Part shown: in pieces, positions 30,461 to 39,648 of the stretch
Position numbering within the stretch: position 1 is the stretch's first letter
How the letters are laid out: the number at the start of each line of letters is the position of its first letter
Assembly (NCBI GenBank): GCA_951406725.2
Contig: OX597815.1
Span: 186,868,001 to 186,932,000, forward strand
Source of the DNA: Octopus vulgaris
Lineage: Eukaryota
DNA length: 64,000 nt
Direction of reading: 5' to 3'
The notes under the pieces: model-generated
The model's database searches: none
The model's input: the letters and a program-made list of their open reading frames with translations, nothing else
What the model was told of the DNA's origin: nothing
Position numbers and translations under genes: made by a program

Positions 30461-30470
30461 AACTTACTGC

Positions 30471-32816
30471 ATGAACCGAATTTATCCAACAACATTACCC
30501 TTCAACAAAAGAGTATACATCCCAAGACGTACTAATGACCACATGGAAGCACAGTTCACTATAGCTAGGACCAAACTTAGACAGATTTTAGGATTATACA
30601 TTAAGAGACAGAGACAGAATAAGACAGATGCCCAACAACTAGGGATTAAACCTGCATGTGGCCTACAGAAGCTCATTCAGCGCACGAGGAACGGAGAGGT
30701 GATATGCCTTCCCACGGATAAGTCCGGCAGGATGTCAATAGACAGCTTACCGAACTACATCCAGGCAATGCAACCTCATATCGCCAATACAAAAATAACA
30801 ACTGTACAGGCGCATGAGGAGAGAGAAAAGGTCCTCAATGCCCACATGATGATGTGGACAATTGTTCTGGGACCTCAGAAACGTACTGCAAAGAATTTCC
30901 AAGCCTGGAACAATGATATCCCGGCACTGTATGGACTTCGCAAGGACCATAAAGGTTTTACTGACCCTATAGCAGGACCACCAACAAGACCAGTCTGTGG
31001 AGCGAATATCGCTAGCAATTACAGAATCTCCTACTTCCTCTCAATGATCATACGCCCTATAATCAGGATGTCACCTGATGTGTGTGACAGCACAGAAGAT
31101 CTCCTAAGCAGGATCAGTGACTGTAACAAAACTTGTGACTTGACAGGATGTATAGTAGGTGGCATGGATGTGGTATCCCTATACCCATCGATTGACGTAG
31201 ATTTTGCAGTGGAGAAGTGCGTGGAGATGATCAACGAGAGCCAGGTGGAGTTCTGTAATGTCGACACAGAAGAACTGGGCCTCCTACTTAGACTGACATA
31301 TAATAGTGAATACTTAGATAAACATAATCTTAGTAGTTTCTGCCCCAGTAGATGTTTAAGAGGTAGACCGCCTACAATTACTTCTATGGCTAGGAAGACA
31401 CATATAGAAAGATGGCGCGGATGGACCAGAGCCATACGGAGCCCCGCAAATGTCCATCAGGTAAAGAAAATGATCGCACATGCACTAGGAGCTAGTATAA
31501 GAGTTACCCTAAAAGGCCACACATTTAAATTTAATAATAAAATATATGCCCAGGACGTGGGGGCAGCCATCGGTGTTAGTATCGCTGGTGATGTGGCCAA
31601 CCTCTTCATGGTATGGTGGGACAGAAGGCTTAAAGAATGCCTACTGCAGAAATCCATACTCGTAAACATGTACTCTCGCTATGTTGATGATATCAATATA
31701 GTAGTAAAGGCACCCCCACAAGAGAGTACTGTTGATATAGTAATAGAAACTAATACTATGGAGAGCATCCAGCAAATAGCTAACTCCATCCACCAGAGTA
31801 TTAAGGTCACAATAGACTACCCCACTAAACACCCCAACCATAGACTACCAGTACTAGACACTGAACTCTGGCTAGAAATTGTGAAAAATAAAACCCAAAT
31901 CCTTCATTCATACTATGCAAAACCTATGGCCTCAAAATACCTGATCCACCGGAACTCAGCCATTGCGGGCAATGCCAAATTCAATATTTTGATGGCAGAC
32001 CTCGTCAGAATAATGAGAAATGTGTCACGCATGTGCGAGCCTACAGAATTAAAGAGACACATACAGTATTTCATTCACCGCATGCAGTTCTCAGGTTACA
32101 GCCATAAAGAAAGGATCAGAGTATACAAAGGAGCCATGAAGAAATTTGATAATATATTATGTAATGATAGGAATGGGATTTGCCCACTCTATAGGAACAA
32201 GTCATGGAACACTATAGAAAGGACAAAAAAGAAAATAGGGAAGGCCAACTCTTGGTATGATAGCCATAAATACCAGAGTGTCATGTTCGTTGACACCACC
32301 CCTGGAGGTGAACTAGCGTACCGCTTTAGAAGGACCCTAGATAAACTTAAACTAAGAATTAAGGTTGTTGAAAAGCCAGGCAACCCTATCAGATCTATAA
32401 TTGGTAGAAGCTATCCTTTTAGTAGAACTCTCTGTACGGATAACTATTGCACTGTATGTAGATTTAGCCCACAAACGAACTGTAAAGCCAGAAATGTGGT
32501 CTATAGTATAAGATGTATAGAGGGACGATGCAGTAACAAGACAGTAACATACGTAGGGGAAACTGCAAGAAGCATTGGTGAGCGGGTGAATGAACATTGG
32601 AGACAACTCAAGGAAGGTAAAAGCTCATCGATTCTGTACCAACACGCCGAACAAGAACACGGGGGATCAATCAATAACATAGAGATTAAGATATTGTCAA
32701 CACATAGAACAGATGCAACAATTAGACAAATTACAGAAGCTACACATATAATAGAAAATAAACCTAGCCTGAATAGAAAACTAGAATGGAGCAATAGCGC
32801 ACACCACAACATATGA
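30471..32816 (+). CDS. PLE polyprotein: reverse transcriptase plus GIY-YIG endonuclease (781 aa)
   Basis: RT motifs PTDKSG, LYGLRKDHK, PTRPVC, DVVSLYPSI (A), QDVGAAIG (B'), RYVDDI (C), LPVLDT (E), YAKP. Cys linker CTDNYCTVC..C. EN motifs NVVYSIRC..C..YVGETARSIGERVNEH..YQH..RQITEA..SLN. The frame stays open upstream into the (TA)n, so the true start may be lost. Confidence 0.93.
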   Translation: MNRIYPTTLPFNKRVYIPRRTNDHMEAQFTIARTKLRQILGLYIKRQRQNKTDAQQLGIKPACGLQKLIQRTRNGEVICLPTDKSGRMSIDSLPNYIQAMQPHIANTKITTVQAHEEREKVLNAHMMMWTIVLGPQKRTAKNFQAWNNDIPALYGLRKDHKGFTDPIAGPPTRPVCGANIASNYRISYFLSMIIRPIIRMSPDVCDSTEDLLSRISDCNKTCDLTGCIVGGMDVVSLYPSIDVDFAVEKCVEMINESQVEFCNVDTEELGLLLRLTYNSEYLDKHNLSSFCPSRCLRGRPPTITSMARKTHIERWRGWTRAIRSPANVHQVKKMIAHALGASIRVTLKGHTFKFNNKIYAQDVGAAIGVSIAGDVANLFMVWWDRRLKECLLQKSILVNMYSRYVDDINIVVKAPPQESTVDIVIETNTMESIQQIANSIHQSIKVTIDYPTKHPNHRLPVLDTELWLEIVKNKTQILHSYYAKPMASKYLIHRNSAIAGNAKFNILMADLVRIMRNVSRMCEPTELKRHIQYFIHRMQFSGYSHKERIRVYKGAMKKFDNILCNDRNGICPLYRNKSWNTIERTKKKIGKANSWYDSHKYQSVMFVDTTPGGELAYRFRRTLDKLKLRIKVVEKPGNPIRSIIGRSYPFSRTLCTDNYCTVCRFSPQTNCKARNVVYSIRCIEGRCSNKTVTYVGETARSIGERVNEHWRQLKEGKSSSILYQHAEQEHGGSINNIEIKILSTHRTDATIRQITEATHIIENKPSLNRKLEWSNSAHHNI

Positions 32817-33336
32817 CAATAGTGGATCCTGCAAACATAATAAATACACAGGTAATTAAAGAAACAGAAATGAATATCTATATGTGTATGTATGTGTGTA
32901 TATGTGCATATATATGTATATGTATATGTATATGTATGTATATATATATATGTATATGTATGTGTATATGTATGTATATATATATATGTATATGTATATT
33001 CTTTTTTTTTTTTTTTTTTTTTTTTCGATTAGATTTATTATTATTATTAATAATATTGTTGTTATACATACATACAAGCATATGTAATGATAATAATGGG
33101 TGGATGTAAACACATGAACAAAATTAGAACAAAAGCAACAACAACAAAAACAAAATACAAATTACAAGAATGTATATAACCAGAAGATACAAATATTACA
33201 GGCATCCCCCACACACACTAAATAAACATAGACGCACATAGAGATATAAGCATGCGCAAATGAAGACATACAATAGAAATACAAAATGGCTGACGGTTAG
33301 TAAGGAGAGACACAAGTAAGTGAGAAGAAAACAAAG

Positions 33337-33380
33337 GACCACTGATGCGGTCACAGGAGTGTGACGAAAGAACTTTGGCC
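33337..33380 (+). ncRNA. Minimal type I hammerhead ribozyme variant 1
   Basis: GACCA-CTGATG(CG)-GTCACA GGAG TGTGAC-GAAA-GAAC-TT-TGGCC. 6-bp stem II, CCA/TGG stem I. Core differs from CUGANGA. Confidence 0.65.
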
Positions 33381-33556
33381 GAAATAAGATTAAGATTAAT
33401 GTAAAAAATAAATATCACTGAAGCAAAATAACACCAAATATATAGTGCGTGTGTTTTTATTGGCTAAACTGGCAATATGACCATTCCGAAATATAACAAT
33501 ATCTGTTTCAACACACGACTTCACATAAAAAAATCTTGCACAACAAATATTTAAAC

Positions 33557-33609
<53 letters not shown>

Positions 33610-33640
33610 CACACACTGTCGAAGCGTTCCTGTCACAATC

Positions 33641-33683
33641 TGAACCTGATGAATGCTTAAATGCAAGAAAGTATACTAGTTCA
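33641..33683 (+). ncRNA. Minimal type I hammerhead ribozyme variant 2
   Basis: TGAAC-CTGATGA-A TGC TTAAAT GCA A-GAAA-GTATAC-TA-GTTCA. 5-bp stem I, intact core boxes, palindromic stem III. Confidence 0.8.
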
Positions 33684-33839
33684 ATGAGAATAGACATTTA
33701 ATATTTAATTTTCAATATTTCATTTGTTCAGTAAGACGATCGATACTTCATTTCATTTCTTTCTTGCTATATATTCTATATCCTATATTAATATTATAAT
33801 ATAGATAAAGCATAAAACACAGAGTTGAAATTCCTTTGA

Positions 33840-33842
<3 letters not shown>

Positions 33843-33878
<36 letters not shown>

Positions 33879-37399: not shown

Positions 37400-37608
37400 T
37401 TAACGGTTCGGCAAAAGAGACCGATAGAATAAGTACTAGGCTTACAAAGAATAAGTCCTGGGGTCGATTTGCTCGACTAAAGGCGGTGCTCCAGCATGGC
37501 CACAGTCAAATGACTGGAGCACCGCCTTTAGTCGAGCAAATCGACCCCAGGACTTATTCTTTGTAAGCCTAGTACTTATTCTATCGGTCTCTTTTGCCGA
37601 ACCGTTAA
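37400..37608. repeat. Perfect 95-bp inverted repeat with a 19-nt spacer
   Basis: Arms 37400-37494 and 37514-37608 are exact reverse complements, made of the SINE family B tail. Confidence 0.95.
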
Positions 37609-37650
37609 GTACCGGTTGAGAACTGGGATCGATGTAATCGATATATATAT

Positions 37651-37702
<52 letters not shown>

Positions 37703-37737
37703 ATCTATGTATGTAGGTATGTATGTATTTGGAGCCA

Positions 37738-39648
37738 TATCCTCGAACATAGAAATACCTTTTTCGATATACGCAAATGCTTGCTGCATTTTCTTAATGG
37801 TAAAGTGACGTGGCTCAGGTTCGACTTCCTCTTCTATATTTTGTTTCCCTTGTAGCTCTCTCAAATCCTCGTATATCAACGGCTGCTTGTCTTTTTCAAA
37901 TAAATCCGTGAAATCCTCCTGCTCCAAATCCATTTCCAGTTCTTTGCTCGGAGTCACCAACGTTTTCTTGATGGCAACAATATCAAACCCCTTAAAGCCA
38001 TTCACCAATTGCGGGCATAACTTCTTCCATACACCATTCATAGCCATGCTCTGTACATCATTCCATGCCACTGCTAAGTTCTCTAGAGTCTTGTAGATAT
38101 CGTATATCTTCCAAAAGTCACGAACTGTGATGGACTCATGAAGATCAGTTGCTGCTATTGCTTGCCGCAGCGTACGCTTCATATAGCAACGCTTGAAGAT
38201 AGCAATTAGTCCCTGATCCATTGGCTGCAGAAGAGACGTGGTGTTGGTAGGGAGGTATACGACGGTAACGTTGGGGTCAAAATCTACGATGCTTTCCGGA
38301 TGGCCAGGAGCATTATCTAAGATAAGTAAAACCCTTCTCCTAGCAGTACTTCTCTACTGCTGTGATAAAATGACTGAAGAATCAATCTTCAAAAACACCA
38401 ACAGTAACCCATGCTTTTGAATTAGCCATCCATACAAAAGGGAGAGATGCCTTGGGTATGTTCTTCAGGGCACGGGGGTTGTGTGCATGATACACAAGCA
38501 ATGGCTTTAACTTAAAATCTCTTGCACAATTACCTCCCAACAAAATGGTCACACGTTCTTTTGAGACCTTGTAGCCTGGAACAGTTTTCTCCTCCTTGGA
38601 AATGAATGAACGGTCAGGCAGTTTTTTCCAATACAATCCAGTTTCGTCCACGTTAAGAATTTGTTCAGAAAGAAACCCGTTTTCTTCGATGATTTTCTTT
38701 AATGCATAAGGAAAGTCCGCTGCTGCTTGTTCGTCAGCGGATGCACTTTCACCTTCTTAATGGAGTGATAACTTCTTCGCTCCTTAAATCTCATGAACAA
38801 TCCTTGACTTGCCTTGAACTCTACATCCTACTCATCTGGATATTTTTTTCTTCAGGTCCTCAAATAAAGACAGCGCTTTCTCTTGAATGATTTCTTGACT
38901 AATAGTAGCATGCTGACGATTCAACCTAACAAACGAAAGAGAAAGAAGACTTTCCATTTCTTCAAAGATTTTGCCTCTTATTGATGACAGTGTTCTTCAT
39001 CCCTGGGGCTTCAGATTTGATATGTGCTAAAATCTTGGCCTTATTTTGTACAATCGTCGATACAGTTGTCCGACTCATCCAAAAAGATCGTGTAATTGCT
39101 ACCACTTTTTCACGGCGTTTTATCATAGCCAGTTTATCTTCCGGCGTTATAGCATGACGCTTAGCATTTTCACTATGAATTTTCTTAGGAGCGGTGGGGG
39201 CAAAAAATAAAATCACAAATGAATGGAAATAAGAAAGTAGCCGATAAACATACATAAACCAGTCTGAATTCAAAACAATCGTGGGAATCACAAGTGACAA
39301 CGACGCCTAACGGTAGATATTGGAATTACAGTGCAATATGAGATCTGAAAGACGATAAACAAGACAGCACAGCTGATTTCATGACTTCGTTTACTAAGCT
39401 ACACAACTTTATGGTGTATATCTTAACATTTACTGTACAACTTTTGATATGATTTTATATGTTTTTATTCTTATTTATTGTACAGCAACATGATTTTATG
39501 TGCTCTTAACGGTTTTCTAGTGATTTTACAATTCCAATATTTGTGGCGGACAGACGTAAAGTCGAGTAAAATGACTCAACTTGATTTTTATTTTTCTATA
39601 TATTATTTTTGAAAACCGACATATAATCGAGAACGACTTAAGCCGAGG
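37738..39648 (-). pseudogene. Tigger/pogo DNA transposon remnant (HTH plus DDE_1 transposase)
   Basis: KRHAITPEDKLAMIKR..SRTTVSTI, NVDETGLYWKKLPDRSFI..KERVTILLGGN, QPMDQGLIAIFKRCY. Frameshifts and stops. TIR-like CGACTTAAGCCGAGGT near 39632-39648. Confidence 0.85.

What the first reader, a model, noticed from the sequence alone, without database searches (positions are those of the whole stretch)
33337..33683. Two different, non-canonical minimal hammerhead ribozymes in tandem in the PLE 3' region
Seen: HHR1 (33337-33380) has CUGAUG-CG in place of CUGAUGA, a perfect 6-bp stem II, GAAA, a tiny stem III (GAAC) and a CUU site. HHR2 (33641-33683) has CUGAUGA, an A.A opposition where stem II normally closes, a palindromic GUAUAC stem III and a CUA site. 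They are ~300 nt apart, in the sense orientation, and unrelated outside the core. Known: PLE pseudo-LTRs carry minimal type I HHRs with palindromic stem III that are thought to cleave as dimers. Inferred: cleavage at both sites would release a ~300-nt RNA that might circularise (retrozyme-like), or define the template 3' end. The core deviations may be family-specific variants rather than decay, since the ORF is intact.
Basis: partly seen in the sequence, partly recalled or inferred. Interest (0 to 1): 0.78.

Follow-up and report, generated by a model that had tools for sequence, protein, structure and literature searches.

The report
Chance-nested hammerheads from two Penelope families
Both hammerhead-shaped RNA motifs are real, but they belong to two different Penelope-like jumping-gene families that sit in the same TA repeat of an octopus genome, so the pair is likely an accident; the notable point is that the younger family spread to thousands of copies carrying a changed core base (A9 to C) whose effect on self-cutting is untested.

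Summary
The Penelope-like element (family A, Nematis-type linker) ends at 33557, before a (TA)24 tract. None of 29 other copies carries HHR2. HHR2 lies in a ~230-nt 3' fragment of an older, Neptune-type family B. Both families end in (TA)n, which explains the nesting. HHR1's natural partner is a second HHR1 about 4.6 kb away across the full ORF (9 of 12 long copies). The window copy itself is 5'-truncated.

C9 is in 3,666 genomic matches against 2,139 with A9. It arose from A9 ancestors and recurs in one distant relative. The mismatch at the base of HHR2's stem II runs through its lineage. The inserted G, the palindromic stem III and the U3 variants have printed precedent. I found none for A9C, but could not read Lünse 2017. 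Cleavage is untested. There is no support for a 303-nt circle or for a ribozyme-defined 3' end.

The parts
30462..32816 (+). 5'-truncated RT + GIY-YIG ORF of PLE family A (Nematis-type short linker); begins right after a (TA)n tract and lacks about 525 N-terminal residues
33336..33380 (+). HHR1: minimal type I hammerhead motif of family A's pLTR; C9 at 33348, unpaired G at 33349, predicted cleavage after U17 at 33375
33477..33557 (+). First 27 codons of the family-A ORF (MTIPKY..., ATG 33477) repeated at the element's 3' end; 33503-33557 is the ~56-nt tail present on one of the two end types
33558..33616 (.). (TA)24 tract plus short CA-rich spacer: end of family A and likely shared insertion target
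33617..33843 (+). Short 3' (pLTR-only) copy of an older PLE family B (Neptune-type linker in long copies), followed by (TA)17; the 5' edge could lie up to 3 nt further upstream
33641..33683 (+). HHR2: minimal hammerhead motif of family B; unpaired A.A at the base of a 3-bp stem II, 8-nt palindromic stem III, predicted cleavage after A17 at 33678

Best explanation
HHR1 and HHR2 are the terminal-repeat hammerhead motifs of two different Penelope-like families, and they likely lie together only because both families insert into (TA)n tracts. Shown: family A ends at 33557; HHR2 sits in a separate family-B fragment; long A insertions carry HHR1 twice, about 4.6 kb apart, flanking a 1,310-codon ORF that starts 102 nt after the upstream cleavage site. 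Inferred: in such tandem copies the two HHR1 motifs would pair their AGAACU stem III strands and cut slowly as a homodimer, giving a unit-length RNA that may be re-ligated; B motifs would do the same through AGUAUACU. Inferred: A9C, and later C17 to U17, weaken HHR1 without having stopped the family's spread. My odds for HHR1 as a dimer: weak cleavage 0.5, none detectable 0.3, near A9 level 0.2. The window copy, lacking its 5' end and upstream pLTR, is likely inert, and the 303-nt interval has no selected role.
For:: 29 of 29 other copies end at the same junction into (TA)n with unrelated flanks; the HHR2 segment is its own repeat (best other matches 83-94% identical) with its own ends, tail and inverted copies; 4 of 29 scored B loci run upstream, and L040/L043 reach a broken GIY-YIG ORF with a long Neptune-type linker. 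B-type motif within 600 nt downstream in 2 of 81 A ends; 3 of 45 B motifs have an A-lineage end upstream, each with a different spacer; direct HHR1 pairs 4,539-4,649 nt apart in 9 of 12 chosen long loci; between older subfamilies D and A-old, flank 48 of 103 columns changed, core 0 of 11, stem II 0 of 12; family C has U3-A8 plus compensatory changes in stems I and II; stem I UGAAC/GUUCA becomes GGGAC/GUCCC in B's sister family. Cervera and De la Pena 2014 (PMC4209133): monomer inactive, dimer and trimer weakly active for a Schistosoma minimal HHR.
Against: No cleavage was measured. HHR1's dimer helix is poor (two A.A mismatches; forced energy +2.4 kcal/mol against -7.2 for HHR2), so even the homodimer may not form. 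Family-A 5' ends do not pile up at the cleavage site (1 of 93 at 33376, 5 of 93 in 33369-33380; 58 of 93 run through it), so the genome gives no direct sign of cut linear templates. After A9C arose the sample has no power to show continued selection (1 change in 33 core and stem columns; about 2 expected from the flank rate of 8 of 125). The 12 long loci were picked by me from 30 for having long 5' parts. Both stem III strands start AG and end CU, so a heterodimer is not strictly impossible (forced energy +4.1).
Confidence: 0.85

Rival explanations
1. HHR1 with C9 is catalytically dead or nearly so, and family A has gone on transposing without a working ribozyme; the motif is a relic not yet eroded.
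For: A9 forms a sheared pair with the general base G12 (PMC11300833; PMC2553840). Two changes fixed in succession (C9, then U17) and the dimer helix went from a G.U-containing palindrome in family D to one with two A.A mismatches. No pile-up of 5' ends at the site. Naiad and most Chlamys PLEs proliferate without canonical HHRs (PMC8557442).
Against: Stems I and II and the other 10 core positions are unchanged from A-old to the youngest subfamily (low power). U17 and the U7-to-C variant (1 of 30) fall at positions that the consensus allows to vary. C9 recurs in a distant relative with an open 753-codon frame and an otherwise complete motif (L324).
Confidence: 0.3
2. The C9 core followed by an unpaired G is a fully tolerated alternative core, for example with C bulged out and the extra G pairing with G12, and has been fixed more than once in this PLE clade.
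For: C9 in 3,666 matches including the two youngest subfamilies (1.3% and 0.3% within-group divergence). G or T at position 9 together give only 233 matches against a control of 549. An independent C9 occurs in 1 of 8 hammerhead-like motifs found behind related ORFs in 16 metagenome loci.
Against: A single successful source element explains the copy number without selection on the ribozyme. L324 is one contig. The G.G pairing idea rests on recalled base-pair geometry, not on a call. From recall (De la Pena and Flores 2001, not read here), a G inserted after A9 was harmful in a viroid hammerhead.
Confidence: 0.25
3. One reading: the two motifs act together in one transcript, cutting out a 303-nt RNA that circularises as a retrozyme or sets the template's 3' end.
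For: Same strand, 303 nt apart; both stem III strands begin AG and end CU, so two 2-bp ends of a heterodimer helix can be drawn.
Against: Different families; pairing not inherited. Retrozymes are head-to-tail repeats of one unit (bioRxiv 10.64898/2026.07.22.740005), whereas adjacent B copies seen here are inverted. Native fold predicted to mispair both motifs. Copy 3' ends lie 127-183 nt past the HHR1 site. The window copy has no upstream pLTR.
Confidence: 0.04

Closest known systems
Minimal hammerheads (min-HHRs) of metazoan Penelope-like elements (Cervera and De la Pena 2014, PMC4209133)
   Same: Type I layout, short stem I, unpaired base between positions 9 and 10.1, G10.1-C11.1 (HHR1), little or palindromic stem III, position in the pLTR, two copies flanking the ORF in long elements, many single copies. 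Their Fig. S3 text also shows an inserted G (Nasonia), U-A closing of stem II (Hydra), U3 with G8 (Saccoglossus), U3-A8 (Schistosoma) and one AGAAA box.
   Different: All 56 representatives have A9 (their descriptor demands it); HHR1 has C9 as the family state. The stated consensus for the inserted base is H (not G), while this clade mostly has G. HHR2's lineage keeps an unpaired base on both sides at the foot of a 3-bp stem II.
Small stem-III-diminished PLE hammerheads that cleave as dimers (Lunse, Weinberg, Breaker 2017; seen only as cited in review PMC6765202)
   Same: Short palindromic stem III, PLE association, predicted dimer cleavage.
   Different: Paper not held, so whether it lists C9 variants could not be checked.
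Natural hammerhead core variants (Perreault et al. 2011, PMC3088659)
   Same: C3-G8 to U3-A8 covariation, insertions near C3, and a mismatch at 10.1-11.1 (U.U) are described.
   Different: The section read names A6C, A6a, U13a, U15.1-A16.1 and 2a/2b insertions but not A9C; its Figure 5 could not be seen.
Nematis and Neptune clades of C-terminal-endonuclease PLEs (Craig et al. 2021, PMC8557442)
   Same: RT followed by CX4CxxC linker and GIY-YIG with CCHH; pLTR, inverted truncated copies, tail at one end, (TA)n bias.
   Different: Clade placed by linker length against their Fig. S2 text, not by a tree with references. Family A's tail is ~56 nt (30-40 bp described); its ORF has a long N-rich N-terminal part.
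Non-LTR retrozymes (bioRxiv 10.64898/2026.07.22.740005)
   Same: Short non-coding HHR-bearing units related to pLTRs; family B's short copies resemble the 'monomers'.
   Different: No head-to-tail array of either unit was seen here; the 303-nt interval joins two unrelated units.

Membership tests
PLE minimal hammerhead (HHR1) | Core C3 U4 G5 A6 N7 G8 A9 ... G12 A13 A14 A15.1 ... U16.1 H17 | tested here: not met
   A9 is C in the window and in 3,666 genomic matches; all other core positions match. Descent from A9 motifs is shown, so it is a variant, not a consensus member.
PLE minimal hammerhead (HHR1) | Stems I and II with covariation among relatives; unpaired base after position 9; G10.1-C11.1 | tested here: met
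   (core 0 of 11 and stem II 0 of 12 columns changed against 48 of 103 flank columns between D and A-old; compensatory changes in family C).
PLE minimal hammerhead (HHR1) | Palindromic stem III allowing a dimer | tested here: inconclusive
   AGAACU self-pairs at four of six positions; forced helix +2.4 kcal/mol.
PLE minimal hammerhead (HHR1) | Located in the pLTR, twice in long elements | tested here: met
   Direct pairs 4.54-4.65 kb apart in 9 of 12 chosen loci.
PLE minimal hammerhead (HHR2) | Consensus core and palindromic stem III | tested here: met
   CUGAUGA, GAAA, U-A17; AGUAUACU self-duplex -7.2 kcal/mol; stem I covaries in the sister family.
PLE minimal hammerhead (HHR2) | Paired 10.1-11.1 directly before G12 | tested here: not met
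   A.A in 26 and C.A in 2 of 28 exact-pattern matches, none Watson-Crick; C.A dominates the first 100 listed of 660 sister matches. One of 30 similarity-picked copies (L042) has A-U.
Hammerhead ribozyme (either motif) | Self-cleavage after H17 | not testable with these tools
   Needs a bench assay.
Non-LTR retrozyme (the 303-nt interval) | Head-to-tail repeats of one HHR-bearing unit | tested here: not met
   Two unrelated units; adjacent B copies are inverted.
EN+ Penelope-like element (family A) | RT plus C-terminal GIY-YIG, pLTR, tandem and inverted copies | tested here: met
   Weak Pfam RVT_1 and GIY-YIG matches below cut-off for the window ORF (none for the full-length L116 protein); motifs visible in the translation; structures.
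Nematis clade (family A) and Neptune clade (family B) | Placement in an RT tree with reference elements | not tested
   No reference sequences on hand; assigned only by short (A) versus long (B) spacing after the CX4CxxC motif.

The most novel reading that the evidence does not exclude
The C9-plus-G core is a working natural hammerhead variant that arose at least twice in one PLE clade (octopus family A and the distant element in L324) and is invisible to standard descriptors. The octopus subfamily series A9/C17, C9/C17, C9/U17 is then a dated natural experiment on whether Penelope-like elements need their ribozyme.
Probability: 0.3. Interest if true: 0.55.

Novelty: new variant of a known kind. 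Interest (0 to 1): 0.33.

Why it matters
The headline tandem is an accident and matters little. The remainder has modest value: what PLE hammerheads do is still open (Craig et al. 2021 even suggest they may be passengers), and here a very young family with open 1,310-codon ORFs amplified to thousands of copies after changing A9, the partner of the catalytic G12. Assaying the three successive versions gives a useful answer either way: a new tolerated core that descriptors should allow, or evidence that a PLE can spread with a disabled ribozyme.

Tried and rejected
Rfam: no hammerhead match among 36 hits at E<=10; uninformative for minimal variants. I first read adjacent B hits as head-to-tail retrozyme arrays; one search showed they are inverted, so this was rejected. 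HHR2's A.A as a private mutation: rejected. C9 as a private mutation: rejected. Cleavage-defined 5' ends of family A: no pile-up. Expression: no RNA holder listed on record (14 holding runs are only guessed to be RNA). laid contigs only, so it says nothing on RNA ends or level; it was used only for variant letters (A at 33348 in 11-16% of depth in three runs and 60% in a shallow fourth; C at 33375 in 91-93% of depth in three runs and 26% in the fourth). The microsatellite-rich stretch between ORF and HHR1 was not examined with reads. My own relaxed hammerhead scan scored HHR1 but not HHR2 at its threshold. Trees: one search left out L134, L145 and L161 (unrelated or too short), and its bootstrap had not settled; C9 rows L162/L163 fall outside the main C9 group, so one or two origins within octopus cannot be told apart. 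Literature not obtained: Lunse 2017 and a hammerhead mutagenesis review tried by PMC id; the eLife mutagenesis paper PMC9901934 gave no A9-specific number in the passages read, and its supplements were listed but not read. Earlier scan notes: none for this genome or sequence.

Full report
Observation. The two motifs are in the sequence as described. HHR1 (33336-33380) reads stem I, CUGAUGC, an unpaired G, a 6-bp stem II, GAAA, GAAC, UU, stem I. In standard numbering there is one true core change, A9 to C (33348); the following G is the extra base between 9 and 10.1 that PLE hammerheads normally carry. HHR2 (33641-33683) has a consensus CUGAUGA, an A on each side at the foot of a 3-bp stem II, GAAA and the 8-nt palindrome AGUAUACU. 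The bare core pattern is no rarer than chance in the window (10 matches, 6.3 expected) and Rfam reports no hammerhead; the case for the motifs rests on genome-wide counts and covariation.

The element. The ORF at 30462-32816 encodes RT and GIY-YIG parts (weak Pfam matches) and is 98% identical to a protein named from Octopus vulgaris. It starts directly after a (TA)n tract and shares nothing upstream with 29 other copies. Long copies encode 1,309 residues from a start codon that corresponds to window 33477, inside the 3' repeat; 4 of 12 fetched long loci have frames of 1,310-1,312 codons stop to stop. The window copy therefore lacks about 525 residues and the upstream pLTR. Its linker has the short spacing of Nematis in Craig et al.'s Fig. 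S2 text; this is a motif assignment, not a tree.

HHR2 is not part of it. The 39 other best matches to 33060-33830 are 98-99% identical but stop at the (TA)n. All 29 fetched copies end at the same junction and continue into unrelated DNA. The HHR2 segment is a separate, older repeat with its own two 3' ends (with or without a ~36-nt tail) and inverted copies. Four of 29 scored loci extend upstream, and two reach a broken GIY-YIG ORF with the long Neptune-type linker. A B-type motif lay within 600 nt downstream in 2 of 81 distinct A ends: the window, and L038, which was fetched for its B copy. From the other side, 3 of 45 B motifs (not all distinct places) had an A-lineage end within 700 nt upstream, each with a different spacer: the window, L033 (older family C) and L038 (with a SINE-like insert between). 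Repeated but non-identical nesting is what shared (TA)n targeting would give (inference; the bias is described in PMC8557442).

The real pair. In 9 of the 12 long loci HHR1 occurs twice in direct orientation, 4,539-4,649 nt apart, flanking the ORF (I chose these 12 from 30 for long 5' parts). This is the arrangement Cervera and De la Pena tabulate for full PLEs. In 93 copies sampled by position on contig C1, 3' ends cluster at 33502 (49) and 33558 (21), 127 and 183 nt past the predicted cut. The 5' ends are scattered: 1 at 33376, 5 in 33369-33380, and 58 copies run through the site. So the cut does not set the 3' end of copies. Templates were mostly uncut or re-ligated; the data cannot tell these apart.

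C9 is a lineage trait. HHR1 is identical in 29 of 30 close copies; the exception changes the free position 7. Across the genome one pattern gives 3,666 matches with C9 (control 59), 2,139 with A9 (control 69) and 233 with G or T (control 549). The first 30 loci of the A9 and of the C9 lists, three rows dropped, resolve into a series: family D (A9, 16.4% within-group divergence), A-old (A9, C17, 8.5%), A-mid (C9, C17, 1.3%) and A-young (C9, U17, 0.3%; 13 rows including the window, support 100/97). Between D and A-old, 48 of 103 flank columns changed but 0 of 11 core and 0 of 12 stem II columns, which points to past selection on the motif. A further old family C has a U3-A8 core, A9, and compensatory changes in both stems. 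After C9 arose the test has no power (1 of 33 core and stem columns changed, flank 8 of 125). Among 16 related metagenome loci with 3' sequence, 8 showed a hammerhead-like motif behind the ORF; one of the 8, L324 (46% protein identity, open 753-codon frame, ending in (TA)n), has U3-A8 with C9 and the extra G. As the older octopus families have A9, this is likely an independent origin, but it is a single contig.

HHR2's oddity is also inherited: A.A in 26 and C.A in 2 of 28 exact matches, and mostly C.A in the first 100 listed of 660 sister-family matches, which also carry an extra pyrimidine at the start of the core and a compensatorily changed stem I. One similarity-picked copy has A-U there.

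Mechanism. Shown: the architecture above. From the literature: a Schistosoma minimal HHR was inactive alone and weakly active as dimer or trimer (PMC4209133); A9 makes a sheared pair with the general base G12 (PMC11300833). Predicted: the B homodimer helix is stable (-7.2 kcal/mol), the A homodimer weak (+2.4) and the A-B heterodimer weaker (+4.1); in the native 361-nt region both hammerheads misfold (stem probabilities 0.14 or less). I conclude that HHR1 likely works, if at all, as a slow homodimer in full tandem elements, and that the HHR1-HHR2 interval has no role.

Against print. What I saw: Cervera 2014, parts 1-2 of 4 of the text and parts 1-2 of 3 of the supplement (figures as extracted text only); Craig 2021, passages, a supplement search and one supplement part; Perreault 2011, passages and section 8; the retrozyme preprint, parts 1-2 of 5; PMC6765202, PMC9901934, PMC11014351, PMC3376415, PMC11300833 and PMC2553840, passages only; Lunse 2017, only its citation. 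The inserted base, an inserted G, U-A closing of stem II, U3 variants and one AGAAA box all occur among Cervera's 56 representatives, which all have A9 by design. Searches for 'hammerhead ribozyme' with 'A9C' gave 0 papers; octopus with hammerhead terms gave nothing relevant by title and abstract; Craig's supplement had 0 hits for two C9 cores spelled with U, DNA spelling not searched. A9C may still be in Lunse 2017 or in figures I could not see.

Verdict. New variant of a known kind, interest 0.33.

Noticed in passing
window 33613-33622 (family B; L198-L225, L256-L267): Family B copies have a sharp 5' edge about 25 nt upstream of the hammerhead: 16 of 28 pattern-picked copies start in this 10-nt span, and most of 12 sister-family loci start near the same place. 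It could be the transcription start of a short non-autonomous unit whose template was not cut by the ribozyme.
   Followed up: partly
window 33329-33368: No family-A 5' end falls inside the hammerhead core and stem II in the 93-copy sample, although ends are frequent on both sides; two other loci do break at 33345. It may reflect junctions preferring AT-rich sequence.
   Followed up: partly
L062-L085 (family C): Older relative of family A with a U3-A8 hammerhead core and compensatory stem changes; 2,848 first-look candidates.
   Followed up: partly
L256-L267 (sister of family B): Core reads C-U-U-G-A-A-G-A after stem I: either U3 with G8 plus an extra C, or C3-G8 with an inserted U; 660 matches.
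   Followed up: partly
L324:2493-2540: Metagenome PLE with a U3-A8, C9, extra-G hammerhead motif behind an open ORF.
   Followed up: partly
L327:1676-1722: Hammerhead-like motif with G in place of U4 behind a related ORF; its closest relative L323 has the consensus core.
   Followed up: no
L116:3951-7880: The full family-A ORF has a long asparagine/serine-rich low-complexity N-terminal region, and its first 27 codons are duplicated in the pLTR.
   Followed up: no
window 37442-39306 (- strand): Broken reading frames that look like a Tigger/Pogo-type DNA transposase (family name recalled, not tested).
   Followed up: no
window 1022-55796, many copies: Abundant ~180-240-nt interspersed repeats in both orientations, SINE-like (families D13-D15, D18, D19).
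   Followed up: no
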